The notes beneath the pieces are model-generated. The model was not told where the DNA came from, searched no databases, and was given only the letters and a program-made list of their open reading frames with translations. A stretch of DNA of 64,000 nt from Gammaproteobacteria bacterium. GTDB taxonomy: Bacteria; Pseudomonadota; Gammaproteobacteria; JACCYU01. A program made the translations under genes and the position numbers. Positions 2,511 to 64,000 of the stretch are shown here, piece after piece. Location of the stretch: contig JACCZW010000062.1 of assembly GCA_013695765.1 (NCBI GenBank), positions 6,665-70,664 on the forward strand, read 5' to 3'. How positions within the stretch are numbered: position 1 is the first letter of the stretch; the number at the start of each line of letters is the position of its first letter.

Positions 2511-3280
2511 TGCATGTGGTGGGCGCGGTAGTGTTGGCGGCGGCGGTGCTGGTGATCGGCGCCTGCGCCTCCACGGGCTCCGGGTCAGACGACGACGTGG
2601 AGCCCAACGAGGAGACGGCCCCCATCAATGTAAGCCTCGGCGCGCAGTATCTGAGCCAGGGTGAACTCAACATCGCCAACATGAAACTTCAGCGCGCGCT
2701 GGAACAGGACCCCAATCTCGCCACCGCGCACTGGACGTATGCGCTGTTGCAGATGCGCCTTAACCGCGCCGACCTGGCGGAGCAGCACTTTATTCGCGCG
2801 CTTGCCCTCGATCCGAAAGATTCCCTGGCGCATAACGCCTACGGTACTTTTCTGTGCGACAGGGGCCGGCTGCCGGAAGCGCAGGCGGAGTTCGACAAGG
2901 CGCTGGACGATCCGCTCTACGAGCAGCCGGAGACCGCGCTCACCAACGTCGGCGTTTGCGCGCTTAAAGGCTCGGATGAAAAACAGGCCGAAGACGCCTT
3001 TCGCCGGGCGCTGGCCAGAAATGCCACGTTCATCCCCGCGCTCTACGAGATGGTGCGGTTGACCTACGACCAGCAGCGCTATGCGCAGACCCGGCAATTC
3101 CTCGACCGGTACGCGCAGACGGCCGGCCACACCGCGCATACGCTGTTGCTCGCGGTACGGACCGAGACCGGACTGGGCAACCGCGATGCCGCCCGCGCCT
3201 ATGCGGCACGTCTGCAACAGGATTATCCAGAGTCCCGGCAAGCCGCCCGCGTGGCCAAGATGCAACGACATGGCATCTGA
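2507..3280 (+). CDS. pilF: Type IV pilus biogenesis/stability TPR lipoprotein PilF (PilW)
   Basis: Signal peptide with lipobox (VIGAC), TPR repeats. Conserved position between rlmN and rodZ. ATGA overlap with the rlmN stop. Confidence 0.8.
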
Positions 3281-4408
3281 GCCGGCGCCAACCCCGAGCG
3301 ATACGAAAATAGTCGCGCTTCGGCCCGCCGGCGCGGGTGAGACGCTCAAGGCGGCGCGCGAGCGCCTTGGCATGAGCTTGGAGCACGCGACCAAATTGTT
3401 ATGCCTGCGGAAACAGATCGTCGTCGCGCTGGAAGAAGAGGATCACGAGGCACTGCCGGCGCCTGCGTACGTCAAGGGCTATCTGCGCATTTATGCCCGC
3501 GTGCTGGAGATCGACGAGCAAAAGATCATCGAAAAATACCAGGCGCTCGGTGTCCGCGACCACGATCTGAGCGTGGTCGAACCGGTCCACGAAGGTGCGC
3601 CGAATACCAATTCCGTGGGGCTTAGCGCCACCGCAGTCGCACTGGTGTCCGTGGTACTGTCCGCGCTGTGGTGGGGCACGCAGCAGCGTGAAATTGCAAG
3701 AGAGGCGAGCATCGACCACGCGGCGCTGGCCGCGCGCGAATCGCGAGCGATGAGTCGCGCCGGGACTCGTGAGCGGTCGGCGTCGGCAGGGCCGCGCCAA
3801 TTCGGGCGCGATCCGGTGGCGGGCAATCGCGCCGCGGACGAGACCCGTATGGCTGGAAGTCGGTTTAGAGGTCAGCACCAGAATCGCACTGTCGCTGGTA
3901 AGAATAAGCTCAGCGGCGATCGGCAAATGACTATCGGCCGCAATGCCGCCCTGCCGCGTGAATTATATGCCGCGAGTCTGGAATCGCCCGCGGCGTTGCC
4001 TGGTCCGGATACCGGATTGAGCGGTAACCAGGCAATACCGGATTCAGCCAGGCCGCGGGCACCTGCCTCCGCCGGGGCTACGACGGCCGCCGCCACCCAG
4101 ACAACAACGCAGCGCCGACGGATGAAGGCGCGGATACCCGTACCGCCGATGCGGGTGATCGTCTCGCCCTGCACTATCTAGACGACTCCTGGACGGAAGT
4201 CAGGGACGCCAGTGGCAAACAGCTTATGTACGGCATGGTTTTGGCCGGCGAGTCGCACAGCGTGGCCGGCGAGGCGCCGTTCGAAGTGCTGCTGGGTCGT
4301 GCTCCGAGCGTACAGGTCACTATCAACGACGAAGCGTTCGACGCGTCGCCTTATGTGCGCCCCAACGAGACAGCGCGGTTTACCGTCGATACCCGCGCCG
4401 GCCAGTAA
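3270..4408 (+). pseudogene. rodZ: RodZ-like cytoskeleton protein (HTH, TM helix, linker, C-terminal DUF4115) with an interrupted frame. The N-terminal 3270..4181 is in frame 0; the C-terminal DUF4115 domain is in frame +2, open from 4028 to 4408.
   Basis: N-terminal XRE-type HTH (LGMSLEHATKLLCLRKQIVVALE), TM segment (AVALVSVVLSALWWG), and a C-terminal ...[60 protein letters not shown]... DUF4115 signature in a different frame. Total length is not a multiple of 3. Confidence 0.7.
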
Positions 4409-14551: not shown

Positions 14552-15196
14552 ATGAGTGATCATCTTTACCCGAATCTCGACATGTTTGCTGATGCTGGTG
14601 CCACCCCGTCGGGACATGCGTTCAAACGCGTCGAGATGCCGGATGCCGACGTTATTCTTTTCAAATGCTTTTTTGATGTATCCACGGGCGACGCCTATTT
14701 CAAAGAACTAAATGAAAATGCGGCCTGGAAGCAAGAAAAGATCAAGCTGTACGGGCGGCGCATTGATTTACCCCGACTAACTGCCTGGTATGGCGATAAA
14801 GGCAAGTCGTACAGGTATTCGGGCATTACTGTCAGCCCGGAGCCTTGGACGCCGATTTTGCTAGCTATTAAGCAAGCGATTGAAGCCGTGAGTGGAATAC
14901 GGTTCAACAGCGTGCTTTTGAACAAGTATCGGACCGAGCGCGACAGCGTTGCGTGGCACAGCGATGATGAGCTCGAGTTGGGACGAAACCCCGTCATCGG
15001 CTCGGTCAGCTTTGGAGAAGCCCGCGCCTTTCAGTTCAAACACAAGACGAGAGGTTTACGTGAACAAATCATCTTGTCGCACGGAAGCTATCTGATTATG
15101 CGGGGAACCACCCAACATCATTGGTTGCATCAAATCCCCAAACAAACCGCGTTACGCGGTGCAAGGATTAATCTGACGTTCAGGGTAATACAGTGA
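14552..15196 (+). CDS. alkB: AlkB-family Fe(II)/2-oxoglutarate-dependent dioxygenase (alkylated DNA/RNA repair)
   Basis: 2OG-oxygenase HxD...H...R core (WHSDDE, HHWLH, RINLTFR). About 50% GC against a ~65% background. Confidence 0.85.
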   Translation: MSDHLYPNLDMFADAGATPSGHAFKRVEMPDADVILFKCFFDVSTGDAYFKELNENAAWKQEKIKLYGRRIDLPRLTAWYGDKGKSYRYSGITVSPEPWTPILLAIKQAIEAVSGIRFNSVLLNKYRTERDSVAWHSDDELELGRNPVIGSVSFGEARAFQFKHKTRGLREQIILSHGSYLIMRGTTQHHWLHQIPKQTALRGARINLTFRVIQ

Positions 15197-15224
15197 TTTC
15201 AGGAAAAATGAATTAGGGAGGAAT

Positions 15225-15308
15225 ATGTACGACGCTATTCTTGAGGGGTTGTATTTATTAAACGCATGTTCTACTGAAGCAAATAAGCGTGCTATCTGGA
15301 GGGACTGA
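15225..15308 (+). CDS. Hypothetical 27-aa small protein (MYDAILEGLYLLNACSTEANKRAIWRD)
   Basis: Strong Shine-Dalgarno AGGGAGGA 5 nt upstream of the ATG, inside the low-GC island. No homology assessable. Confidence 0.2.
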   Translation: MYDAILEGLYLLNACSTEANKRAIWRD

Positions 15309-15369
15309 AACTAGCCGCCGCGGCATTATGGCGAACTTACCAAAATCAGCAAGTAAACGCTGCTTATTA

Positions 15370-15560
15370 CGCGCGGGATACACTGCGGCGGTCGCGCAAA
15401 GCCAGGGTCATGATTGCTCATAAGCGCGTAAGTACAATCCAGCGCCAGCATCCACGCGCTGAAGGTTGTCTTGGCAACGGCGCGATTACATTCAATTCGC
15501 GCCAGAGTGGCGAAGAGTGGATTAACCGGCCAGGCGGATCACGCAGTTAAGCCTTGAGAT
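15370..15560 (-). pseudogene. Degraded remnant of a cysZ-like sulfate transporter gene
   Basis: About 140-190 bp with roughly 80-85% nucleotide identity to nt 16850-16990 of the intact cysZ in the same orientation (aagccagg(g)tcatgattgc...ccagcgccagcatccac(a/g)cgctgaa...acattcaat). It translates to ...AWMLALDCTYALMSNHD... with a frameshift. Confidence 0.5.
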
Positions 15561-15682
15561 TGCATCCACCCACGTCTCACGCCGTTTTTTGATGTATCGA
15601 GCGTTTTTCATACGACTTACTTCCGGACATCAGCTTAATTACTGGCCGATACGCGCCGTGGTTCATGCGCGGCGGACTCAAA

Positions 15683-16438
15683 CTAGTAACCGAACAGTTC
15701 TATGTCTTTTCGATACGCTCGCGCGACAATTTCCCGCGTCTCTTCAGTGTAGTAATGGCTGTAGCCGAGCCGCTTGGACTTGTTCAGGTGGTTCATATCC
15801 GTGCCGATATTACCCAGCTTTTGCCGCACCTGCGTGTAATCGACGGCCCGATTTTCATGGTAGCCCACGAAATCGACCGCCAGCGTGCCCGCCTCATCGC
15901 ATAAATACTCATGTTGCGGTACCAGGATTTGGTGCTCATAGATCGATTCCGGGGTGATAAAGCCGCTCACAAATGACTCGAAATCCTGATACTGGCTTAA
16001 GTGCTTGGCTCCCCAGCGCTGAAACTGGGCTTTGATGCAGCCGTTTCGGTGGAAGTGATAAATCGAAACCAGGCGGTCCCACGGGTTACGCACGAAAATA
16101 AACTTGAAATAGTCTTTGAAGGCGCGCTCACCAAAGATCTGCTTGTATTCGGCGACGGTGCAATCTCTGCCCGTGCATGAGCCAAACAGGGATGTGCTGA
16201 TCGACTGGCCGCCCGTCTTCGGCACGTGCACATAGATACAGCGATGCCGATCGAATGGCCTCAGCGTTCGCACATTTTTTCCGTGGATGTCCTGCTGGAT
16301 GCTATGGCTGAAGGTACGGAGTTCTTGCCAATAACGTATGGTATCGCCGTTCATACTTTTCAGGCGGGCGATTCGGTATCCCCGGTAGCATTCTTTGGCC
16401 ACCAGCTTAGCGTATTTCAGCGAAAATCGATTGATCAT
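15683..16438 (-). CDS. Sulfotransferase family protein (PAPS-dependent)
   Basis: 5'-PSB motif IYVHVPKTGGQS and 3'-PB motif FVRNPWDRLVSIY. About 50% GC. Start at MINRFSLKY; the first 79 codons of the listed ORF are GC-driven extension. Confidence 0.8.
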   Translation of the reverse strand: MINRFSLKYAKLVAKECYRGYRIARLKSMNGDTIRYWQELRTFSHSIQQDIHGKNVRTLRPFDRHRCIYVHVPKTGGQSISTSLFGSCTGRDCTVAEYKQIFGERAFKDYFKFIFVRNPWDRLVSIYHFHRNGCIKAQFQRWGAKHLSQYQDFESFVSGFITPESIYEHQILVPQHEYLCDEAGTLAVDFVGYHENRAVDYTQVRQKLGNIGTDMNHLNKSKRLGYSHYYTEETREIVARAYRKDIELFGY

Positions 16439-16676
16439 GCGTTCCTCGTCTATGGTTGTTGACCAACGGTGTAGCGAACTACAGCGAGGTGGCGTCGCCC
16501 TTTTGAACACGCATAACGCTAAACCAGTAAAAACCGGCGTGTGACATAACCCTCCCCTTGTAGTAGTCCCCTCTTTTCCCGGGCCTATACCTTGACGCCG
16601 ATCGTTTGTCAACCTCAGTTGGCTGCAATGAATCGCCGCGAGGGCCTCCGTCAAAAGCTGGCCACCCAGTCGCAAT

Positions 16677-17444
16677 CTATTGATTGAACCGATTCCGGGC
16701 CTCGCGGATGGCGCCGGCGCCCGCGTCGCCGCGCAGCCGCTCTACCCACATCGCGGTGGCGCCCGCCACGCCCACCGGCATCGCGAAGAAATTCAGCACA
16801 GGAACACTGGTCATCAACAGCACCGCGCTGCCGAAACCCAGCGCCAGCGGTTTGTTTTGACCCAGCAGTCTGCGGCCATCGCGGAAAGCCAGGTCATGAT
16901 TGCCCATGGGCGCGTCGGCATACTCCAGCGCCAGCATCCACACGCTGAACACCAGCCACGCAAACGGTGCGAATACATTCAATCCGGGGATCAGGAACAG
17001 GATCAGCAGCGGGACGGTGCGAACGACGAGATAGCGAAGCTTGCGCAGCTCGTTGACAACGGCGGTGATGCCTGCCCGAAAAATGTGGCTCCAGCTCTGC
17101 GCGGGCAACGTCTGGCCGGTCAGTCGCGCCTCCAGCTTTTCCGCCAGCAGCCCGTTGAACGGCGCGCTCACGAGATTGGCGATTAAGGTAAATGTGTAGA
17201 ACACGACCAGCAGCGCGGTTACCGCGAACAGCGGCCACAGCATCCAGCGCGCCCACTCCAGCCATGCGGGCAACAGCCAGTCGAGGAACGCTTCGAACCG
17301 GCTGGCGCCGAACCAGATGGCGCCGCCGAATAACGTAAAGTTGATCAGCAACGGAATGATCACGTAGCGGCGGATGCCACGCTCCGTAATCAGACCGAAA
17401 CCGCGCGTCACGTAGCGTGCGCCGCTGGTGAATTGGCCGATCAT
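16677..17444 (-). CDS. cysZ: Sulfate transporter CysZ
   Basis: Four-TM CysZ-family topology and conserved blocks (GLITERGIRRYVIIPLLINF..., EYADAPMGNH). Confidence 0.85.
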   Translation of the reverse strand: MIGQFTSGARYVTRGFGLITERGIRRYVIIPLLINFTLFGGAIWFGASRFEAFLDWLLPAWLEWARWMLWPLFAVTALLVVFYTFTLIANLVSAPFNGLLAEKLEARLTGQTLPAQSWSHIFRAGITAVVNELRKLRYLVVRTVPLLILFLIPGLNVFAPFAWLVFSVWMLALEYADAPMGNHDLAFRDGRRLLGQNKPLALGFGSAVLLMTSVPVLNFFAMPVGVAGATAMWVERLRGDAGAGAIREARNRFNQ

Positions 17445-25276: not shown

Positions 25277-25467
25277 CGATAACGTTGGCAAAGGATTGCC
25301 GATCTACAGACGCAGTGTCAGTCGCCCATGTGCTGTCGTAAATCGTAGGGGCTGGTTGATCTGTGTGTAACCCGGCATCCTCAGTGCCGGGGACTCGCAA
25401 GCTTATCAACCAGCGCGGGCTCGGCTCGATTCACACGTTATGCGCAAATTCTACAATGGAGCAATCG

Positions 25468-25999
25468 ATGAAATTCTTACCTCACACTTCGATTAAGATT
25501 CAGAGACAGAGCAATGGACTTATTGCGGCAGACAAGGAGTTTTTGTTGGCCTTTTGGTCCCGGGTCGATGGTGAGATAGAAGATGGACTATCTGGCGCAA
25601 TTGGTTGCTACATATTTTCCATTCGAGCGGGCAAGGGTTCATTGCCTTGGTACGTTGGACTCGCTGAAAAACAGTCATTTCGCAAGGAGTGCTTTACGAG
25701 TCACAAACTTAAACACTACAACAATGCAATTGCGAAAAAAAAAGGGCACCCCCATATTAACCTTGATCGCCAAGTACACCCCGGGCAATAAACGTGTCAA
25801 CCCTACTGGAAATAAACATCGTGACATTCAGTTTCTTGAAACCATGCTTATTTCTAAGTGTGTGGCCAGAAACGACGAGCTATACAATGTCAGAGACACT
25901 AAGCTGCTGCGGGAAATGCAAGTGCCTGGCTTATTAAATACACCTCAAGGCAAGCTCGCATCATCGGTTTCAGAATTCAGAGGCCTAATTGGCAAATAA
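25468..25999 (+). pseudogene. Hypothetical protein with an N-terminal GIY-YIG-like nuclease motif, interrupted at an A9 homopolymer (frames 1 then 2). Low-GC island cargo.
   Basis: GCYIFSIRAGKGSLPWYVGLAEKQSFRKECFTSH resembles GIY-x(10-12)-YVG-x-A-x(4)-R-x(3)-H. ORFs 25363..25791 and 25583..25999 overlap and switch frame exactly at the aaaaaaaaa run (about 25738-25746). GGAG lies 7 nt before the ATG at 25468. Confidence 0.5.
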
Positions 26000-26188
26000 G
26001 CCCGCGTGGGGCGGAAGCCTCTCCTGGGCATAAGCGAAAGCCCCGTTTAAGTTGAGTGAACTGCGCGAACTCCAACATTCATTCAGCCTCCTCGACCTGC
26101 AAGTCATCTACCTGCAGTGCCCGTTTTGCGCCAGAAGACGGCGCGCTCCGGCTTCCTGCAAGGGCGCCTGTCTGCTAAATTGCAGCGC

Positions 26189-26410
26189 ATGAAGGTCGAA
26201 CAACTCAAAGGCATCGTTCATGCTGATCCGGACATTATGGGCGGGACGCCTGTCTTTGTCGGCACGCGTGTGCCGCTGCAGAACCTCATCGATTATCTGG
26301 AGGGCGGGGAGTCAATCGAGGACTTCCTGGATGCCTTCCCTACCGTGCAGCGCGACCAGGTCATCGGCGTCATCGAAGCCGGCAAGCTGACGATTCTCGA
26401 CACCGTCTGA
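26189..26410 (+). CDS. DUF433-domain protein (putative antitoxin of a DUF433/DUF5615 type II TA pair)
   Basis: DPDIMGGTPVFVGTRVPLQNLIDYLEGGESIEDFLDAFPTVQRDQV matches the DUF433 consensus (GGkPvi.GTRi.v..il..l..G.s.eeil..yP.l....i). Confidence 0.75.
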   Translation: MKVEQLKGIVHADPDIMGGTPVFVGTRVPLQNLIDYLEGGESIEDFLDAFPTVQRDQVIGVIEAGKLTILDTV

Positions 26411-26733
26411 GTGGTGCGCATTCTGATCGACGAGTGCCTCAACTGGCGGCTATCTCGCGCGCTCACCGCCCACTACGCAGTATCCGTCCAGAAATGGGCT
26501 GGGGCCGACTTAAGAATGGCGCATTGTTCACCAAGGCTGAAAAAGAGTTTGACGCCTTCCTGACCGGTGACCGCAATCTGAGCTTCCAGCAGAACTCGAC
26601 GAGGTATAACCTCGCCGTTGTGGTCCTTCATGCCGAGAGCACCCAATTGCATCAGACGCTGCCGCTGATCCGTAACGTTCTGGACCTCCTCCCGACACTG
26701 AAGCCTGGACAGGTTTTGGATGTGTATCCGTAA
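26411..26733 (+). pseudogene. DUF5615-family PIN-like toxin, frameshifted near 26485-26495
   Basis: GTG-start frame gives VVRILIDECLNWRLSRALTAHYAVSVQ (typical DUF5615 N-terminus, start overlapping the antitoxin stop). The rest (...EMGWGRLKNGALFTKAEKEFDAFLTGDRNLSFQQN...VVVLHAES...) is in ORF 26434..26733, a different frame. Confidence 0.6.
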
Positions 26734-26917
26734 TCCTGAAACCAACTAAAGGTTCGGGACAAACCGGGACATACGCTTCTAAGATCAGCAACGGCCACCA
26801 CGAGGGATGACCGCGGCCTTTGATCCCACTTCGTGCGGATTCTTGGGGTTCGCGCGTGCCTCCCGACTACGTCACTTGCGCCAGTGAAAAGGCCGCGCCA
26901 GCAGCGCTCAGTCACTT

Positions 26918-37087: not shown

Positions 37088-37945
37088 TTAGAGGTCAAGC
37101 CATGCGCCGAGATCCTGGTGAATCAAGTCCTGTAGCTTCAGAATATCTTCGCGGTAGTAATTGATCAGTCCAGCTCGCTCGTCCGTCGAAATTTCCGCTT
37201 TCTCAAATTTGCTGGAACCAATGTTGGCGAGGCGCCGACGGATTCCTGACGGTACTATCGACTGCACAGCCCGAGTCATGCCCAGGCTCTTGCGATACTG
37301 TAAGCGGAAGTACTGTATACCTCTTGCTTTTTTGATAGTGCCAGTGTTGTGACGCGTCGATACGTTTGCACGGAAGGTATCGTCAACCTCCAGGTAGCGG
37401 TAAGTCTCGCGCATGACGGAAATGGCGTCTTTTTCCAGGTCGTCAAATAACAAAATTTTCAGTCTGTCTTTCCCGAAGAGATCCAGATAATACTTCACGT
37501 GATTGTAGTACAGGCTGCTCCGCAATATGTCCTCGTCACCATCCAGTATATTCTCCCAACTGTGCGTTTCGTTGCCGACGCGGACGCGCATATTGTAGCC
37601 CGAAATCGTCTTGTCTATAGGATTTCGGAGAATGGCAATTAACTTCGCATCCGGAATGTGAGTGCGGATTGCGTGCGCCGCAAATCTACTGTGCAGGTAG
37701 TTGGGTGAAGCTTCACCCACGGCTTTCTCGGTGGTGACCCCGTTAAACAGAGCAATGTAATCCGCCATGGATCTGACGGGGAATGCGTCCGCTGCACGAT
37801 GCTTTGGATTGGTTTCGTCGTAGGCAAAAAAGCGAGGCTCTTTCAGCCAGCTCATATGGACGTGCGGGTGCTCTTTGAGATAGTAGTAAAGCGATGTCGT
37901 ACCGGCTTTTGCAACACCGATGACTAAGAAATTAGGTAGTTGCAT
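37088..37945 (-). CDS. Sulfotransferase-domain protein (PAPS-dependent; different family from the 15683-16438 enzyme)
   Basis: 5'-PSB FLVIGVAKAGTTSL and 3'-PB ILRNPIDKTISGY. About 48% GC. The ATG at 37945 has a GGAGG Shine-Dalgarno; the ORF-track start at 37975 is a TTG extension. Confidence 0.8.
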   Translation of the reverse strand: MQLPNFLVIGVAKAGTTSLYYYLKEHPHVHMSWLKEPRFFAYDETNPKHRAADAFPVRSMADYIALFNGVTTEKAVGEASPNYLHSRFAAHAIRTHIPDAKLIAILRNPIDKTISGYNMRVRVGNETHSWENILDGDEDILRSSLYYNHVKYYLDLFGKDRLKILLFDDLEKDAISVMRETYRYLEVDDTFRANVSTRHNTGTIKKARGIQYFRLQYRKSLGMTRAVQSIVPSGIRRRLANIGSSKFEKAEISTDERAGLINYYREDILKLQDLIHQDLGAWLDL

Positions 37946-38197
37946 CGAGCCTCCTGTCATTGTCCGCGGTTTCAAGGGGAATAGTGTGCAAAAGCCGATG
38001 AAAGCAGATCGTTACCCTATGCCGCCTGCATACGGTCTTCCGCAGCTGTTACTCGCGCGAGAAAGCCCACTTAACCAGTCCAGAAAGTGAGTCCGCGGCG
38101 CGCTTCGCCGAAAAACTAGACATTGATTGTATCGTACCCATTACTCTACCGGTAAACTCGGAGCTACTGGTAAGCTTCGACGCCCGAGCCGCCTCGA

Positions 38198-57852: not shown

Positions 57853-59073
57853 ATGATTGATCTGCTCTGGCTGTTGGTGCCCGCCGCGGCTCTATCGGGG
57901 TGGTACACGGCCGGCCACTCGATAAGGAATCGGGCCGAACGGCCTGCCGTCCAGTTCCCCGATGACTACATCAAGGGCCTAAACTTCCTGCTCAACGAGC
58001 AGCCGGACAAGGCGCTCGAAGTGTTCATGCGCATCGACGAGGTCGATTCGGACACGGTCGAGACGCACATCGCACTTGGCAATCTTTTCAGACGTCGGGG
58101 CGAAGTCGAGCGCGCCATTCGCATTCATCAGAATCTGATTGCCAGAGACAACCTGCATCCGGACCACCGCGCGGATGCGCTGCTGGAATTGGCCAAAGAT
58201 TATTTGCGGGCGGGACTGCTGGATCGCGCGGAGGACCTTTTCAAGGAAGTTATAAATATCGGCGGGCAGGTGCCGCAAGCCTATAAGCATCTGCGTGAAA
58301 TTTACGAACAGGAGAAAGACTGGCAGCAGGCGATCGATGCCGCCGTACGCTGGCAGCGGGAATGTGGCGTGTCACAGGGTGAGGTGATCGCGCATTATCA
58401 TTGCGAACTGGCCGATGCCGGTATGATCGACAGTCAGCACGGCAGCGCGCTGCGACACGCGCGACAGGCGCTGGTTCACGACCCGGATTGCGTACGCGCG
58501 AGCATTCTGCTCGGCGACCTGGCTTTTGCGCAGGCGGATTACTGTATCGCCATTAAATTTTATAGCGATGTGCATCGCCAGAAACCGGATTTCATCCCGC
58601 TGGTGCTGCCAAAGCTTAAAGAGGCTTTCGCGCGACGCGGCGATTTCGTTGGCCATCAAAAATTATTGCGGCACATGCGGGATCAGCATGGAGGCCTCTC
58701 GGTCACTCTGGACGTAGTCGACAGCCTGAAACAGTTTAAGGGACCTGGGGCTGACACTGTTTTGTCCGAAGAGATGGCCCGGCCTTTGGTGTCCTTAAGG
58801 ATGATCACGGAGTTTATCCGGCTGAAAACGGGGAATGGGCCGAACCATGAACCCGTTTTGCGCGCGATCGGCAATGCGCTGGATGCGCATGTGCGGCGTC
58901 AGGCCTCGCATTTGTGCTATCGCTGCGGACTGGAGACCAGAGCCTTGTACTGGCAATGCCCGGGCTGCCATGGCTGGGGGACGGTGAAGCCCATCGATCC
59001 CCCTGGCAATGCGCTAAAATCGGCGCCACAACCTGCGCCGGCCAGACAGTGGCGCGCGTCCGCCGGCAAATAA
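57853..59073 (+). CDS. lapB: Lipopolysaccharide assembly protein B (LapB/YciM), TPR plus rubredoxin-like metal-binding C-terminus
   Basis: Collinear with E. coli LapB from the TM N-terminus (LLWLLVPAAALSGWY) through GNLFRRRGEVERAIRIHQ to CYRCGLETRALYWQCPGCHGWGTVKPI. Confidence 0.9.
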   Translation: MIDLLWLLVPAAALSGWYTAGHSIRNRAERPAVQFPDDYIKGLNFLLNEQPDKALEVFMRIDEVDSDTVETHIALGNLFRRRGEVERAIRIHQNLIARDNLHPDHRADALLELAKDYLRAGLLDRAEDLFKEVINIGGQVPQAYKHLREIYEQEKDWQQAIDAAVRWQRECGVSQGEVIAHYHCELADAGMIDSQHGSALRHARQALVHDPDCVRASILLGDLAFAQADYCIAIKFYSDVHRQKPDFIPLVLPKLKEAFARRGDFVGHQKLLRHMRDQHGGLSVTLDVVDSLKQFKGPGADTVLSEEMARPLVSLRMITEFIRLKTGNGPNHEPVLRAIGNALDAHVRRQASHLCYRCGLETRALYWQCPGCHGWGTVKPIDPPGNALKSAPQPAPARQWRASAGK

Positions 59074-59291
59074 ACGGCGCCGGCAGATTTACGTACGCGC
59101 CCGTTCGATCAGCATCACCACAGCCCTGACAAGGATCGATGTTTGAGTTACCCTGCGAGATACTGAACGCTCCGTTGCAAGTACGTTGTGTACTTAGATA
59201 AAAGTGTGCCTTTAAGGTAAATATTGCTTGTCGCGGCTTTCTAGCAGGGGCTGCTTAATTATGAACTTCAACACTCCAGGCGCAGCGCATT

Positions 59292-60188
59292 TTGAACAAG
59301 AAGATTCGTAAGGCGGTTTTTCCGGTCGCGGGGCTCGGCACACGCTTTCTTCCCGCGACCAAAGCCAATCCCAAGGAAATGTTGCCCGTGGTCGACAAGC
59401 CGCTCATTCAATATGCGGCGGAGGAAGCGGTCGCGGCCGGCATCGATGTATTGATCTTTATCACGGGCCGCAGCAAGCGTTCCATACCGGATCATTTTGA
59501 CAAGGCGTATGAACTTGAGGTTGAGCTCAAGGCGCATAAGAAAGACAGCATGCTGGCGCTGGTGCAGGAAATAGTGCCCCCGCAAGTTACCTGCGTATAC
59601 ATCCGTCAGGCGGAAGCGCTGGGGCTGGGACATGCCGTGCTCTGCGCGCGGCACGTAGTCGGCGACGAGCCGTTCGCGGTGATCTTGGCCGACGATCTGA
59701 TATCCAGTGATAGTGGCGGCTGTCTCAGCCAGATGGTGGACATTTACAATCAGCGGCAAAGCGGGCTAATCGGCGTACAGCAGGTGCCGCGAGAAGACGT
59801 GCATAGTTATGGCATCGTCGAGGGCGAGTCGGTCGATGAGCGCCTGTGGAAGATCAATAGTATGGTGGAAAAGCCCAAGCCCGAGGAGACGTCTTCTAAT
59901 ATCGCGATCGTTGGCCGCTATATACTGACGCCATCGATCTTTGACTGCCTGACTCGCGTGAAGCGCGGCGCTGGCAACGAAATCCAGTTAACCGATGCAA
60001 TCGCCGGTCAGCTCGAGCGCGAAGCAGTTTTCGCCTATGAATTCGAGGGCAAGCGGTACGACTGCGGCAACAAACTTGGCTATCTGGAGGCGACCGTGGA
60101 ATACGCGCTCAAGCATCCCGAGTTGCACACACGGTTTCGTGATTATCTCAAAGCGCTCGATGTGGAGTCGATCGGACCGCCAAAGTAA
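59292..60188 (+). CDS. galU: UTP--glucose-1-phosphate uridylyltransferase
   Basis: [39 protein letters not shown] start. Confidence 0.9.
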
Positions 60189-60210
60189 TTTTCCAACTTC
60201 CACCACGACC

Positions 60211-60813
60211 TTATTCGAATCTGAAGACGTATTCCTGCGTATTGTTTTGCAGTAAATAGGTGCGTTCAGTCACAAACCCCGTCATTTTTCTTTGCAGCGT
60301 CGGCATGCTGTAAGGCGAGTGTGGGCGCGGCTCGCCATCATTCGATGCATATTGCAGACAATCCTCGGTTAGCACCGTAAAGCGCGAGGGGGTGCCGGGC
60401 ATCTGCTTGCCGTTGTACATTATAGCGAACAGCAATGTTCCTCGTTTGCTGAACTCATGCAGGCGCGCAACCAGCGTGTCCAGACCGTCAGGCGTCAGGT
60501 AATTCAGCAGATCCCATGCAAGCAACACGTCGAACTGACACTGTCCGGCGTCCGATAGAATCCGTTTGGCGGCCCTGGACGCACCCGGATTTGTTCCCTC
60601 ACGCGGCGCATTGATTTCACCGAGCATCAACGCCAGATGCTCGACATAGACCTTGCAATGAAGGCTTGAGAGGAACTCGATATTGCGTGTAATCGCGGTG
60701 CCCAGATCTAGCGCCCATTGCCGCTTTCCCGTGCGTAGATGATGCGCAATCAGGTTGAAGCCAGGTGAATGGATGCCTTGCGCGCTTGCTTGAGCGTGTT
60801 GGTTGCGGCGCAT
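60211..60813 (-). CDS. Class I SAM-dependent methyltransferase-like protein (hypothetical)
   Basis: Motif I-like ALDLGTA and a post-I acidic pocket (VLLAWDLLNYL). No confident family assignment. Confidence 0.5.
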   Translation of the reverse strand: MRRNQHAQASAQGIHSPGFNLIAHHLRTGKRQWALDLGTAITRNIEFLSSLHCKVYVEHLALMLGEINAPREGTNPGASRAAKRILSDAGQCQFDVLLAWDLLNYLTPDGLDTLVARLHEFSKRGTLLFAIMYNGKQMPGTPSRFTVLTEDCLQYASNDGEPRPHSPYSMPTLQRKMTGFVTERTYLLQNNTQEYVFRFE

Positions 60814-60975
60814 TGAAGCCTAAAAAACTCTGTCGTGAGCAATGGAAAAAATGGTAACGGCGCACCCGGAGTCATGCCGCCTTAAACACTGCTTGACCAG
60901 TATGCCTGACGCATTTTGATTATCCAGCAGAGACTATACCGACTTGACGTGCGGCCCGCTGACCAGCGAATTTTC

Positions 60976-61500
60976 CTAGCCGTTTTTTGCGGTACCGCCA
61001 TGCGCGATCGCCTCAGAAACCCTCTCTTGACTCGCGCCACTCTTTGCACTCTTGGGTTCCATATCGATGCTGCCCTTGAATTTGGCGCCGTCTTCGAGGC
61101 TGACGCGGGGCGCGACGATGTTGCCGCGGACATCTCCGGATTGCTTGATAACGATGCGCTCGTCACCATACAGATCGCCTTCGACCTTGCCTTCCACCGT
61201 GATAATTCTTGCACGGCAATTGGCCTTGAACGACCCTTGCGCGCCTACCGTCAGATTGTTCTTTTTCAGCTCGATGGAGCCTTCGACGTGTCCCTGTATG
61301 ATCAGGTCCTCATCGCCGAAAAGTTCGCCCTTGATGCGGATGCTGGCACCGATAACGGCCGGCAGCGTCCGCCGGTCAGCGCCAGCGTATTTTGAAGAAG
61401 GGGTCTCGGTGGTCACCGGTTCGGTAATATTCTGCTTTGATTCGCCGTTATCTGGCAATGTCGAACCAAAATTAACGGTATTATCGGATCTCTTGAACAT
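60976..61500 (-). CDS. Bactofilin-family cytoskeletal protein
   Basis: DUF583/bactofilin beta-helical repeats (VIGASIRIKGELFGDEDLIIQGHVEGSI ... VEGKVEGDLYGDERIVI ... VRGNIVAPRVSLEDGAKFKGSIDM) with disordered termini. Confidence 0.8.
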   Translation of the reverse strand: MFKRSDNTVNFGSTLPDNGESKQNITEPVTTETPSSKYAGADRRTLPAVIGASIRIKGELFGDEDLIIQGHVEGSIELKKNNLTVGAQGSFKANCRARIITVEGKVEGDLYGDERIVIKQSGDVRGNIVAPRVSLEDGAKFKGSIDMEPKSAKSGASQERVSEAIAHGGTAKNG

Positions 61501-61982
61501 CGGGGTTGCTCCTTTAAACGTTAGGAAAAAGACCGGATACAGGTCAAACGCGCATCAAATGGGCTGATGTACGTAAAGTTCCTACCGCAGCGCCCGAAAT
61601 AAGCGCCCTCGAGCAGTAAAAGCATGGCGTTTGTGCGGCAGGACTACCTGCAAACCGTTTATAGAGTATGGCAAAGCAACCGACCGAAGTCTGGGAGCCG
61701 AACCCGGCGGGGGTGCGAGCGGTAGTAAAAGACCGACTGGCTTGCCCTAAAGGTCGATGATCTGGCGAAATCCGCATTCGTGCGTGCCGCACTTGCGAGA
61801 GGAACAGCGGCATTAGATTTTTCTGCGCGCTTATGGCCCGTACACCCGAGAATGGCTCGTTTTTGAACGCTCGGCGCCTTTGGGCGCGTGGTTTTAACGG
61901 CGCCTATTGACCGACCGGCGGTGTAGGCGAACGCGCATGGCTCGCGCTATAACCAGTGTTGGTTCTACCAAACGAGAGAAAA

Positions 61983-62727
61983 ATGAACCCGTTGGTTGCC
62001 GCATTTGAAGCCTATTTCCGCGTGATTGACGCCGATACGCCGGCGCTGCTGCGCGAAGTTTGCCGTCTTCGCTATCAGGTTTACTGCGAGGACACGCATC
62101 TGGCCGACGGGGAGTTGTTTCCCGAGCGCATTGAGAGCGATACATACAATAAGCGTGCGACTCATATACTTTTGCAGCATCATCCATCCGGCAACTTTGT
62201 CGGCACCATGCGCATTGTGTGCTGCCCGATCGCACTGACCCGCTCGGGCTGTTTCCTATTGAGGAACTCGCCCGTTTCGACACCCGGTTTCCAGGTGTGC
62301 CCGCGCCCCCCTCAGAGCCCATGTGGCGGAGATATCTCGTTTCGCGGTGTTACAACGATTTCCTCATCACAAGCCGCGACGTGTGGAGCGGACGCTTGAA
62401 TCCGAAATGGCAGATGACGGGAAGGCCAGCACCCGCCTGCGATTTCGCCACCCGATGCTCGCGCTGGTGTGTGGCCTTGTGCGTACGAGTGCACACAACG
62501 ACATCACTCACTGGTACGCGCTCATGACACCCAGCGTCCACCGCCTGTTAAGCCACTTTGGTCTGGAGCTGCAAGTCATTGGCCCGTCGTTTGAACATCA
62601 CGGCGAGCGGCGCCCTCATTTTGACAGTATCAGGAATGTAATGGATCGAGCACATCGCCAGCGGCGGGATGTATGGGAATTAGTTACGGACTACGGCAGG
62701 CTGTCGGTGGCGCCGTGCTTCCGATAA
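61983..62727 (+). pseudogene. PEP-CTERM/exosortase system-associated acyltransferase (TIGR03694-like GNAT N-acyl amino acid synthase), split across three frames
   Basis: N-terminus MNPLVAAFEAYFRVIDADTPALLREVCRLRYQVYC (family hallmark) in frame 0; LPDRTDPLGLFPIEELARFD...PSEP in frame 2; (V)AEISRFAV...HPMLAL...NDITHWYALMTP... in frame 1. The second switch coincides with a C6 run (cgcccccctc). Confidence 0.6.
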
Positions 62728-62787
62728 TGGAGTGCCGCCGCCTGCGGCAGAGTAACGCGTGTTTAAATGCTAAGCCGCGCGGCGTGA

Positions 62788-63558
62788 TCATTGCGAAACA
62801 ATGTCTATGATCGGGTCCGCCATCCGCATGCTGGTGAGCGCGACGCGCTGAATGCGGTCGCACAAGTCCAGCGCGATCGCCGCGGCTTCGCGCGCCGCAA
62901 TTTCCAGCTTGCGGTTGTCGATCATGTTGATTACCGGTACGACGGTCGCGTCATCCACGTCTTTGAGCGCGCCATCCGCGCTTGCCAGCAGGCGGGCTAC
63001 GTGCATGGGAGTAATCAGGTCGCCGGGACGAGCGCCGGTGATGGCGGTGATGTGAGCGACGCGATGTGCGATGCGTTCGGACAGTCGTTTGCCGACCGCG
63101 CGCGCGGATACTATCGGGATAACCGTGGCCGCGCTGGCCGGTATCACGGGCTCTTCCGGGCCAGGGGCCTTGATCAACCGTCCGCGCGCACCGTCGCACT
63201 TGACCAGAGTGACATCGAAATGAGCGGCGGCGTGGATATGCGTGATACGGGCAGCCGCAACGGCGCCCAGGCGCTCAGGTTTAACCATCGGCAAAGCGTA
63301 GGCGACCGTGCGCTCGCGGCGTGCCGATTCGATTACGGCCGGCGTGAGGCGGCTTTCCTCCGCGATTACACGAGCGCCTGTGAACGTGTCGGGAAACGGC
63401 GGTATAACGACCGTGGAAGTAATGCCTACGCGGCCCTCGTGTTCCGCCGCCAGCCGATACATTGTGCTCTTCTTACCGCCGGCACCGACGACACAGATGA
63501 TCCCGCGTGTCGCGCAAAGCGCCTCGACCAGATTGAAATGCGGCCGGTGTGGGATCAT
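62788..63558 (-). CDS. YqeC-like putative selenium-dependent molybdenum hydroxylase maturation protein (P-loop like)
   Basis: N-terminal ICVVGAGGKKSTMYRLA P-loop-like block and overall size/architecture of the YqeC family. Assignment from memory of the family pattern only. Confidence 0.5.
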   Translation of the reverse strand: MIPHRPHFNLVEALCATRGIICVVGAGGKKSTMYRLAAEHEGRVGITSTVVIPPFPDTFTGARVIAEESRLTPAVIESARRERTVAYALPMVKPERLGAVAAARITHIHAAAHFDVTLVKCDGARGRLIKAPGPEEPVIPASAATVIPIVSARAVGKRLSERIAHRVAHITAITGARPGDLITPMHVARLLASADGALKDVDDATVVPVINMIDNRKLEIAAREAAAIALDLCDRIQRVALTSMRMADPIIDIVSQ

Positions 63559-63634
63559 CCCGGTTTATGTTTCTTCGGTTCATGGGGTGCGCCAGGTCTT
63601 GATGACCATAAGCGTTTCCTCGGCACGGAATTGA

Positions 63635-64000
63635 CTAAACGCCGCGCGCCGGGCGCGCGGGTCTTGGCGGTGGCATCGCGTCGAACCGAATTGACTCGTG
63701 CCCGTTGAAGATCAGAAAGTGTTTGCCTTTGGCGCGCCCGATCATGATCACGCCCGTCTTGTGCGCCAGGTCCAGACCCATCCGCGTGATGCCGGAGCGC
63801 GACAGCAGCACCGGTATGCCCATCTGCGCGACCTTGATGACCATCTCGGAAGTCAGCCGCCCGGTGGTATAGAAAATCTTGTCGCCGCCGTCGATCCCGT
63901 CCAGCCACATCATGCCCGCGATCGCATCCACCGCGTTGTGGCGGCCAACATCCTCCACGAATTTCAGAATCCCGGTCTCCGAACAAAGCGCGCAACCGTG
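63635..64000 (-). CDS. fdhD: FdhD-family sulfurtransferase / formate dehydrogenase accessory protein, C-terminal part (N-terminus beyond the window edge)
   Basis: EDVGRHNAVDAIAGMMWLDG...TTGRLTSEMVIKVAQMGIPVLLSRSGITRMGLDLAHKTGVIMIGRAKG matches the FdhD C-terminal consensus (EDVGRHNA.DK..G......TSGR.S.EMV.K.A..GIP...S.SAPT). Confidence 0.65.
   Translation of the reverse strand, partial: HGCALCSETGILKFVEDVGRHNAVDAIAGMMWLDGIDGGDKIFYTTGRLTSEMVIKVAQMGIPVLLSRSGITRMGLDLAHKTGVIMIGRAKGKHFLIFNGHESIRFDAMPPPRPARPARGV

What the first reader, a model, noticed from the sequence alone, without database searches (positions are those of the whole stretch)
60211..62727. Methyltransferase - bactofilin <-> PEP-CTERM/exosortase-associated acyltransferase: a fragment of an exosortase-type surface system
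The plus-strand gene at 61983-62727 has the hallmark N-terminus of TIGR03694 N-acyl amino acid synthases, which are found almost exclusively beside exosortase (EpsH/XrtA) PEP-CTERM loci. It is cut into three frames (switches at about 62215-62225 and at the C6 run about 62303-62308). Divergently transcribed across a 455-bp untranslated region are a bactofilin and an uncharacterised SAM-methyltransferase-like protein. Exosortase loci commonly also carry sulfotransferases, which would tie in with the two foreign sulfotransferases found in this window.
Basis: partly seen in the sequence, partly recalled or inferred. Interest (0 to 1): 0.55.

Follow-up and report, generated by a model that had tools for sequence, protein, structure and literature searches.

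The report
Broken N-acyl amino acid synthase gene
A gene for a lipid-making enzyme that usually accompanies exosortase surface systems survives here only as a twice-frameshifted leftover that has lost its usual partner genes and lies among housekeeping and cell-shape genes, so it is an ordinary pseudogene and not part of a working surface system.

Summary
The + strand gene at 61983-62727 runs through three frames. Once repaired it matches NCBIfam TIGR03694 (PEP-CTERM/exosortase system-associated acyltransferase) at 215 bits against a cutoff of 112, over nearly the full profile. The gene at 60976-61500 (-) is a bactofilin. The gene at 60211-60813 (-) has a methyltransferase-like fold.

Both frameshifts are real: eleven contigs checked, from about eight samples and four archives, are identical across the gene.

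The gene lies in a core housekeeping block (gyrA ... rpsA-ihfB-lapB-galU). About 82 kb of the source contig shows no exosortase gene, and the 72.4 kb scanned for PEP-CTERM tails shows none.

In the closest intact relatives (63% and 57% identity) and in Nitrosomonas/Nitrosospira, the gene is followed by three partners: a small PstS-like periplasmic protein, a porin-like outer-membrane protein and a dCache_3-GGDEF(-EAL) sensor. All three are missing here; YqeC follows after 60 bp.

Bactofilin and the methyltransferase-like gene form their own conserved operon beside galU, with or without the acyltransferase next door. The two sulfotransferases lie 24 and 45 kb away.

Verdict: a recent, fixed pseudogene left over from a four-gene cassette. 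Low interest.

The parts
61983..62219 (+). Acyltransferase pseudogene, segment 1 (frame 0), residues 1-79 (MNPLVAAF...GTMRIV).
   Evidence: Translation. tblastn of intact relative P0001 residues 1-80 gives 76% identity. Public gene calls extend this frame to 62399 as a 138-aa 'GNAT family N-acetyltransferase' (P0047).
62216..62221 (+). Frameshift site 1: (TG)3. An extra TG (62220-62221) relative to GTG-CTN in relatives shifts frame 0 to frame 2.
   Evidence: L007 reads ATGCGCCTGGTGCTTCCCGAT and L010 reads GCGCGCCTGGTGCTCGCCGAT, against ATGCGCATTGTGTGCTGCCCGAT in the window.
62222..62308 (+). Acyltransferase pseudogene, segment 2 (frame 2), residues 80-108 (LPDRTDPLGLFPIEELARFDTRFPGVPAP).
62306..62311 (+). 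Frameshift site 2: a C6 run. Either two extra C (from C4) or one missing C (from C7) shifts frame 2 to frame 1.
   Evidence: Alignment A1 shows the C7 repair is one residue longer than all 26 relatives, so C4->C6 fits the family length.
62311..62727 (+). Acyltransferase pseudogene, segment 3 (frame 1), including the E-I-S-R-F-A motif and the C-terminal half. The stop codon is at 62725-62727.
   Evidence: The motif aligns with ELSRFAI of LasI.
62728..62787 (.). 60-bp junction where relatives carry three partner genes (PstS-like about 130 aa, porin-like about 400 aa, dCache_3-GGDEF sensor). All three are absent here.
   Evidence: Contexts. tblastn of the L007 copies of the partner genes finds nothing in the window or in L011.
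61501..61982 (.). 482-bp divergent intergenic region. The bactofilin-proximal part holds a block conserved in three lineages (61652-61691, - strand). No Rfam family matches.
60976..61500 (-). Bactofilin, 174 aa. A neighbour, not part of the acyltransferase module.
   Evidence: PF04519, 78 bits. 75% identical to the L007 orthologue. Present without the acyltransferase in L099 and in the P0102 contig.
60211..60813 (-). 200-aa protein with a class I methyltransferase-like fold, in an operon with bactofilin. A neighbour, not part of the module.
   Evidence: Invariant LDLGxA, VE, FD and WDLxNY motifs in 14 homologues.
62788..63558 (-). YqeC (selenium cofactor biosynthesis protein), convergent with the pseudogene. 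It marks the right edge of the deletion or rearrangement.
   Evidence: TIGR03172, 149 bits; PF19842.

Best explanation
[quoted passage not shown] This is a LuxI/FeeM-like enzyme; by the biochemistry reported for the family (cited in PMC4897644) it uses acyl carrier protein-bound fatty acids, which was not tested here.

In the ancestor it headed a four-gene cassette: the synthase, a small PstS-like periplasmic protein, a porin-like outer-membrane protein, and a dCache_3-PAS-GGDEF(-EAL) c-di-GMP sensor. In this species the three partner genes have been removed, and the synthase has acquired two frameshifts at short repeats, (TG)3 and C6. It can therefore only give a truncated 138-aa product with 79 native residues.

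The lesions are fixed in the natural population and appear recent, because every family-invariant residue is still encoded.

The divergently transcribed bactofilin and methyltransferase-like genes are an unrelated conserved operon that happens to border the site where the cassette was inserted. Nothing here is an active part of an exosortase system.

Shown: family membership, the two frameshifts, their presence in independent assemblies, the missing partners, and the independence of the bactofilin operon. Inferred: the order and age of events, and the ancestral biochemical role.
For: Family: TIGR03694 at 215 bits against a cutoff of 112, nearly full length. The repaired protein keeps all 18 invariant columns of a 27-sequence family alignment, including E116/S118/R119. 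The family profile aligns this motif with LasI ELSRFAI.

Real lesions: eleven contigs checked (L001-L006, L011, L013, L016; L014/L015 duplicate L002/L003) from JGI, Logan, ENA and an NCBI MAG are identical across the gene. The few SNPs all lie outside it. The public index lists 17 contigs carrying the same 138-aa truncated product.

Relatives read straight through both sites.

Lost partners: the intact orthologues P0001 (63%) and P0004 (57%) are followed by a 126-132 aa PBP_like_2-like gene, a 407-408 aa gene with a weak Porin_O_P match, and a dCache_3-PAS-GGDEF(-EAL) gene. Nitrosomonas-type and JGI loci show the same, as do 8 loci of the genome scan. tblastn finds no trace of them in the window or 8.4 kb beyond it.

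Context: gyrA-serC-pheA-hisC-tyrA-aroA-cmk-rpsA-ihfB-lapB-galU on one side and YqeC-FdhD on the other.

Mild decay: five departures from the >=85% consensus, including the otherwise invariant D56 (N here), against 1-3 in relatives.
Against: Relaxed selection is therefore not demonstrated on its own.

No reads were inspected directly.

The C-terminal tail of the family is variable, so the left breakpoint of the deletion cannot be located.

A second, intact copy or an exosortase locus elsewhere in the genome cannot be excluded. The species was not found among the 185,579 representative genomes, and only about 82 kb of its contig was seen.
Confidence: 0.85

Rival explanations
1. The frameshifts are sequencing or assembly errors and the gene is intact and functional in the organism.
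For: One site is a C homopolymer, a known error hotspot. The window comes from a metagenome assembly.
Against: Both lesions are identical in contigs assembled independently by different pipelines from about eight samples. Site 1 is a TG dinucleotide gain, not a homopolymer error. The three partner genes are also missing, and an indel error cannot cause that.
Confidence: 0.03
2. The two shifts are a regulatory device, either programmed ribosomal frameshifting or phase variation at simple repeats, and full-length enzyme is made conditionally.
For: Both sites are short repeats, and both need a shift in the same direction (frame 0->2->1).
Against: Neither site is an X XXY YYZ slippery heptamer in the reading frame (read directly from the sequences). 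(TG)3 and C6 are shorter than typical contingency tracts (general knowledge). No length polymorphism was seen in any contig checked. Relatives have no repeat and no shift at either site. Two independent events would have to coincide.
Confidence: 0.03
3. One reading: methyltransferase, bactofilin and acyltransferase together form a fragment of an exosortase/PEP-CTERM surface system, linked to the window's sulfotransferases.
For: The TIGR03694 family is statistically linked to exosortase systems (Craig et al. 2011, as cited in PMC4897644 and PMC11072679). In Nitrosomonas-type loci the gene follows a PrsR-like regulator, an AMP-ligase, a decarboxylase and an AsnB-like gene, which by general knowledge of the exosortase A-associated families are typical companions. 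The trio is also adjacent in the nearest relative.
Against: No exosortase gene was found in about 82 kb and no PEP-CTERM tail in the 72.4 kb scanned. Bactofilin plus the 200-aa gene occurs without the acyltransferase in two other lineages, and lies next to it in only 1 of 79 loci. The sulfotransferases are 24 and 45 kb away among housekeeping genes. The gene itself is dead.
Confidence: 0.05
4. The truncated products (the 138-aa N-terminal piece and/or the 106-134-aa C-terminal ORF) retain some activity or act as a split enzyme.
For: Both ORFs are called as genes in public annotations. The C-terminal ORF has its own in-frame ATG and GTG.
Against: Only 79 of the 138 residues are native. Residues 80-108, which include invariant P91 and nearly invariant E93, are encoded in neither called product. 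No relative shows a split architecture.
Confidence: 0.03

Closest known systems
[quoted passage not shown]
   Same: Full-length HMM match well above the cutoff. Conserved residues and the E-x-S-R motif are retained. Closest homologues are annotated with this name.
   Different: The reading frame is broken twice. No exosortase-system gene lies within the about 82 kb seen. The three partner genes that follow it in its own subclade are missing.
FeeM-type N-acyl amino acid synthases (PF21926; structure 2G0B as cited in PMC4897644)
   Same: Same fold family by Pfam: Acetyltransf_5 at 45.5 bits, and FeeM at 25.6 bits, just under its 27-bit threshold.
   Different: The FeeM match is sub-threshold. 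FeeM belongs to a fatty-acid enol ester pathway, not to this cassette.
LuxI-type acyl-homoserine lactone synthases (LasI 1RO5, and others)
   Same: Distant profile match (E=4e-5) covering the N-terminal half and the E-x-S-R-F-A motif. Several homologues carry precomputed PF00765 hits.
   Different: Very low similarity. By the cited literature the family makes N-acyl amino acids, not AHLs. No LuxR-type partner is present; its relatives instead carry a periplasmic, porin and c-di-GMP sensor trio.
Bactofilin cytoskeletal proteins (PF04519)
   Same: The gene at 60976-61500 matches the full bactofilin domain.
   Different: It is paired with an uncharacterised methyltransferase-like protein. No functional tie to the acyltransferase was found.

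Membership tests
TIGR03694 exosortase-associated acyltransferase / N-acyl amino acid synthase | Whole-protein HMM score at or above the curated cutoff, with near full-length coverage | tested here: met
   215.4 bits against 111.95, profile positions 2-239 of 241, on the repaired protein.
TIGR03694 exosortase-associated acyltransferase / N-acyl amino acid synthase | Family-invariant residues, including the E-x-S-R motif shared with LuxI-type synthases | tested here: met
   All 18 invariant columns of A1 are retained and the motif aligns with LasI. However D56, which is Asp in all 26 other sequences, is Asn here.
TIGR03694 exosortase-associated acyltransferase / N-acyl amino acid synthase | An uninterrupted reading frame encoding the whole domain | tested here: not met
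   Two frameshifts, at 62216-62221 and 62306-62311, present in all independent assemblies checked. It is a pseudogene of the family, not a working member.
TIGR03694 exosortase-associated acyltransferase / N-acyl amino acid synthase | Location beside exosortase-system genes (XrtA/EpsH, PrsK/PrsR, PEP-CTERM proteins, associated ligase, decarboxylase and amidotransferase) | tested here: not met
   None found among the proteins scanned in the window or the contig's own gene.4 kb to the right and 8.7 kb to the left. No PEP-CTERM-like C-termini in 72.4 kb. Nitrosomonas-type loci do have the associated genes.
TIGR03694 exosortase-associated acyltransferase / N-acyl amino acid synthase | The genome encodes an exosortase and PEP-CTERM substrates somewhere | not testable with these tools
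   The species was not found among the representative genomes. Only one 93-kb contig and short contigs are available.
Synthase / PstS-like / porin-like / dCache_3-GGDEF cassette (subclade-specific, defined here) | The synthase is followed by the three partner genes | tested here: not met
   Present in L007-L010, L017-L019, L020-L024, L030, L047 and L093. Absent from the window and L011.
Bactofilin (PF04519) | Bactofilin domain above the gathering score | tested here: met
   78.1 bits against 27.9, profile positions 2-97 of 98.
Class I SAM-dependent methyltransferase (the 200-aa protein) | Rossmann-like methyltransferase fold | tested here: met
   AlphaFold model with pLDDT 86.7 and pTM 0.86. 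All top PDB matches are SAM methyltransferases, with E down to 1.8e-7 and TM about 0.5.
Class I SAM-dependent methyltransferase (the 200-aa protein) | Canonical SAM-binding motif I (E/DxGxGxG), and sequence-family membership | tested here: inconclusive
   Motif I reads LDLGxA, with only one Gly, and is invariant in 14 homologues. There is no Pfam hit and only TIGR03587 at E=0.004, far below its cutoff. SAM binding is unproven.

The most novel reading that the evidence does not exclude
The pseudogene may be the last trace of an uncharacterised signalling cassette. In its relatives the LuxI-like synthase would make a lipid signal (an N-acyl amino acid). The three invariably adjacent envelope proteins would perceive that signal: a porin-like outer-membrane protein, a half-size PstS-like periplasmic binder, and a dCache_3-GGDEF-EAL sensor. 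The output would be c-di-GMP, and in Nitrosomonas this would sit next to exosortase-system genes. On this reading the present species records the deliberate loss of that circuit. The cassette's co-occurrence is shown here; its function as a signal-and-receptor pair is speculation. [quoted passage not shown]
Probability: 0.3. Interest if true: 0.55.

Novelty: new member of a known kind. Interest (0 to 1): 0.17.

Why it matters
For this window it matters little. It corrects a public annotation, in which two ORFs are called 'GNAT family N-acetyltransferase' and 'hypothetical', to a single pseudogene of a known family. It also shows that the neighbouring bactofilin, methyltransferase-like and sulfotransferase genes should not be read as parts of an exosortase system.

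The useful by-product concerns the relatives. In this branch of the family, the most faithful neighbours of the synthase are not exosortase genes. They are a porin-like protein, a PstS-like protein and a dCache_3 c-di-GMP sensor. That gives a concrete, testable lead on what these enzymes' products are for, a question the cited literature still calls open (PMC4897644).

Tried and rejected
- Rfam on 59000-64000 at E<=1 gave nothing.
- The sigma-70 promoter and terminator scan of 60100-62900 found no more sites than in shuffled sequence.
- A search for a sigma-54 -24/-12 element upstream of the gene gave only weak matches (7-8 of 11), not conserved in position between loci.
- A PEP-CTERM C-terminal motif scan of all six-frame ORFs of the window and L011 gave no full matches.
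It was repeated with 7 close sequences.
- That scan did not recover the window's own species, so the exosortase content of the genome could not be checked.
- The primary paper (PMC3187218) is not held, so it is cited only through papers that cite it.
- A relative-rate comparison to detect relaxed selection gave only a small, inconclusive excess.
- No paper was found that mentions both this enzyme class and diguanylate cyclases.
Full report
WHAT IS THERE

ORF listing and three-frame translation show a + strand gene starting at ATG 61983. It reads in frame 0 to 62219, in frame 2 from 62222 to 62308, and in frame 1 from 62311 to the stop at 62725-62727. The first switch lies in a (TG)3 at 62216-62221. 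The second lies in a C6 run at 62306-62311.

Intact relatives read GTG-CTT or GTG-CTC where the window has GTG-TG-CTG, so site 1 is most simply a TG duplication. At site 2, removing two C restores exactly the length seen in all 26 aligned relatives. Adding one C gives a protein one residue longer. Either repair restores the frame.

The repaired protein scores 215.4 bits on NCBIfam TIGR03694 (cutoff 111.95) over profile positions 2-239 of 241. It also hits Pfam Acetyltransf_5 and, just under threshold, FeeM.

ARE THE FRAMESHIFTS REAL?

Exact-protein look-ups with the neighbouring YqeC and with the 138-aa truncated product returned contigs from JGI metagenomes, Logan assemblies of SRA runs, an ENA assembly and an NCBI MAG. 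Every contig checked is identical to the window across the whole gene, including both lesions. The handful of SNPs among them lie elsewhere (56187, 60464, 60539-40, 63580).

Independent pipelines and samples giving the same dinucleotide gain and the same C6 tract rules out sequencing error. It also gives no sign of tract-length switching. The window itself is 100% identical to ENA contig ERZ27252444 k141_375190 (93 kb).

CONTEXT IN THE WINDOW

HMM scans of most of the window's larger ORFs gave only core functions:
- ndk-rlmN ... hisS-bamB-der
- smc-zipA-ligA, two pyrophosphatases, trpS-scpA-scpB-rluB, rmuC, ubiG-like
- gyrA-serC-(serA-like)-pheA-hisC-tyrA-aroA-cmk-rpsA-ihfB-lapB-galU, running up to 60188

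To the right come YqeC and FdhD. Beyond the window lie a pterin-binding protein, a Sel1 protein, an autotransporter, and DUF4394, DUF5666 and DUF6502 proteins. To the left of the window lie IscR/IscA-like genes, a heptosyltransferase and others.

No exosortase or PEP-CTERM family appears in any of these tables. A pattern scan of all six-frame ORFs in the window and its right-hand extension found no PEP-CTERM-type C-terminus.

The two sulfotransferases are at 15683-16675 (next to CysZ) and 37088-37975. They lie about 45 and 24 kb away, separated from the finding by housekeeping operons.

WHAT THE GENE LOOKS LIKE WHEN INTACT

A search of the large protein collection gave 92 homologues. The nearest intact ones are 63% (P0001) and 57% (P0004) identical.

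P0001 comes from Gammaproteobacteria MAGs with the same tyrA ... lapB-galU | 201-aa gene, bactofilin <-> acyltransferase arrangement. There the acyltransferase is intact (260 aa) and is followed by three genes:
- a 126-aa protein with a weak PBP_like_2/PstS match
- a 408-aa protein with a weak Porin_O_P match and a beta-barrel-like C-terminus
- a convergent 909-aa dCache_3-PAS-GGDEF protein

P0004's locus has the same four genes but no bactofilin. Nitrosomonas-type loci and a JGI contig again have synthase + about 150 aa + about 400 aa + dCache_3-(PAS)-GGDEF-EAL. In the Nitrosomonas-type loci this set is preceded by a PrsR-like sigma-54 regulator, an AMP-ligase, a PLP-decarboxylase and an AsnB-like amidotransferase. 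By general knowledge of the exosortase A-associated families, these are that system's usual companions.

These include Nitrosospira. The trio was not found beside more distant family members.

tblastn with the partner genes finds nothing in the window or in the 8.4 kb beyond it. The pseudogene's stop is followed after 60 bp by the stop of convergent yqeC. The window therefore holds the first gene of a four-gene cassette, broken, with the other three removed.

HOW OLD IS THE DAMAGE?

The repaired protein keeps all 18 invariant columns of a 27-sequence alignment, including the E-I-S-R-F-A motif. A family profile aligns that motif with ELSRFAI of the AHL synthase LasI.

It departs from the >=85% consensus at five positions (D56N, R67H, L78I, P155R, L185V), against 1-3 in its closest relatives. 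It is only slightly further from outgroups. This fits recent inactivation but does not prove relaxed selection. The order of events (partner loss first or frameshifts first) cannot be resolved.

THE DIVERGENT NEIGHBOURS

The gene at 60976-61500 (-) is a bactofilin (PF04519, 78 bits).

The gene at 60211-60813 (-) belongs to a small family of 14 sequences with no Pfam model. Its AlphaFold model (pLDDT 86.7) matches only class I SAM-methyltransferases in the PDB (best E=1.8e-7, TM about 0.5). Motif I is a degenerate LDLGxA. 'Methyltransferase-like' is therefore fair at the level of fold, while SAM binding is unproven.

The bactofilin plus 200-aa pair sits convergent with galU in four lineages. 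In two of them (L099 and the P0102 contig) other genes occupy the place of the acyltransferase. Among the 79 acyltransferase loci, the pair is adjacent in only one, the nearest relative. The pair is therefore an independent operon. The acyltransferase cassette was inserted next to it in one sub-lineage.

A block at 61652-61691 (- strand) upstream of bactofilin is conserved in three lineages. It probably belongs to bactofilin's own promoter or leader. Rfam finds nothing in the region.

MECHANISM AND RIVALS

The best-supported reading (confidence about 0.85) is a fixed, recent pseudogene left from a partly deleted cassette. It can encode at most 79 native residues before the first shift.

- Sequencing error is excluded by the independent assemblies.
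- Programmed frameshifting or phase variation is unlikely. There is no slippery heptamer, the tracts are short, no polymorphism was seen, relatives have no such sites, and two events would be needed.
- A split enzyme is unlikely, because residues 80-108 are in neither called product.
One such gene is also needed for a polysaccharide phenotype in Methylomonas LW13 (PMC11072679).

COMPARISON WITH WHAT IS KNOWN, AND NOVELTY

By sequence this is a member of a described family, but a dead one, so it counts as a new (defunct) member of a known kind.

What may be new lies outside the window: the tight linkage, in this branch of the family, of the synthase with a porin-like protein, a PstS-like protein and a dCache_3 c-di-GMP sensor. 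I found no paper in the held library that mentions this enzyme class together with diguanylate cyclases. Fusions of the enzyme to a PilZ domain have been reported (PMC4897644), which independently ties these enzymes to c-di-GMP.

A signal-and-receptor reading of the cassette is attractive but untested. I give it about 0.3.

LIMITS

- No reads were examined.
- The species' genome was not found among the representative genomes, so the presence of an exosortase or a second cassette elsewhere is unknown.
- The primary paper on the family could not be read.

Noticed in passing
window 3270-4408 (+): rodZ appears to be split by a frameshift. A 303-aa product with the HTH_25 domain ends at 4181, and the RodZ_C domain is encoded in another frame (called as a 60-aa product at 4226-4408). 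The same split appears in the ENA contig and the NCBI MAG. This is a second broken gene in the window, and it is also a cell-shape gene.
   Followed up: partly
L007 10899-15234; L010 4108-9270; L017 10820-15458; L018 10963-15606; L019 10992-15452; L020-L024, L030, L047, L093: In the window's branch of the family the synthase is followed by a PstS-like protein of about 95-150 aa, a porin-like protein of about 400 aa, and a dCache_3-(PAS)-GGDEF(-EAL) protein. This four-gene cassette was not found described in the held literature.
   Followed up: partly
window 61652-61691 (- strand): A conserved block (GACTT..N13..GCTTTGCCATACT..CGGTTT) lies about 150-190 nt upstream of the bactofilin start. It is invariant in the window, L007 and L099, and is probably bactofilin's promoter or leader.
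   Followed up: partly
window 60464-60880: Two independent metagenome contigs end at exactly 60646 and a third ends at 60880. Three of the six variant positions seen among contigs fall at 60464 and 60539-60540, inside the methyltransferase-like gene. This points to local strain variation there.
   Followed up: no
window 60211-61500 (-); L007 7814-9282; L099 5282-6603: Bactofilin plus a 200-aa methyltransferase-fold protein forms a conserved two-gene operon convergent with galU in four lineages. The partner protein family has only 14 members and no Pfam model.
   Followed up: partly
L062 2536-3212; L073 1844-2490; L080 10001-10715: Three other genomes show frame changes inside their copy of the synthase gene and lack the three partner genes. 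They may be parallel pseudogenes, although two of the contigs are short. Many distant loci carry two tandem copies of the synthase.
   Followed up: no
window 14552-17444 and 37088-37975: There are two low-GC sulfotransferase genes. The Sulfotransfer_2 gene at 15683-16675 lies between a 2OG-Fe(II) oxygenase and CysZ. The Sulfotransfer_3/1 gene at 37088-37975 lies between an SDR and rmuC. Neither is near any polysaccharide or exosortase gene.
   Followed up: partly
window 25300-26900: The lowest-GC stretch of the window (about 50%) lies between the soluble and the membrane pyrophosphatase genes. It holds only a 142-aa ORF with no family hit.
   Followed up: no
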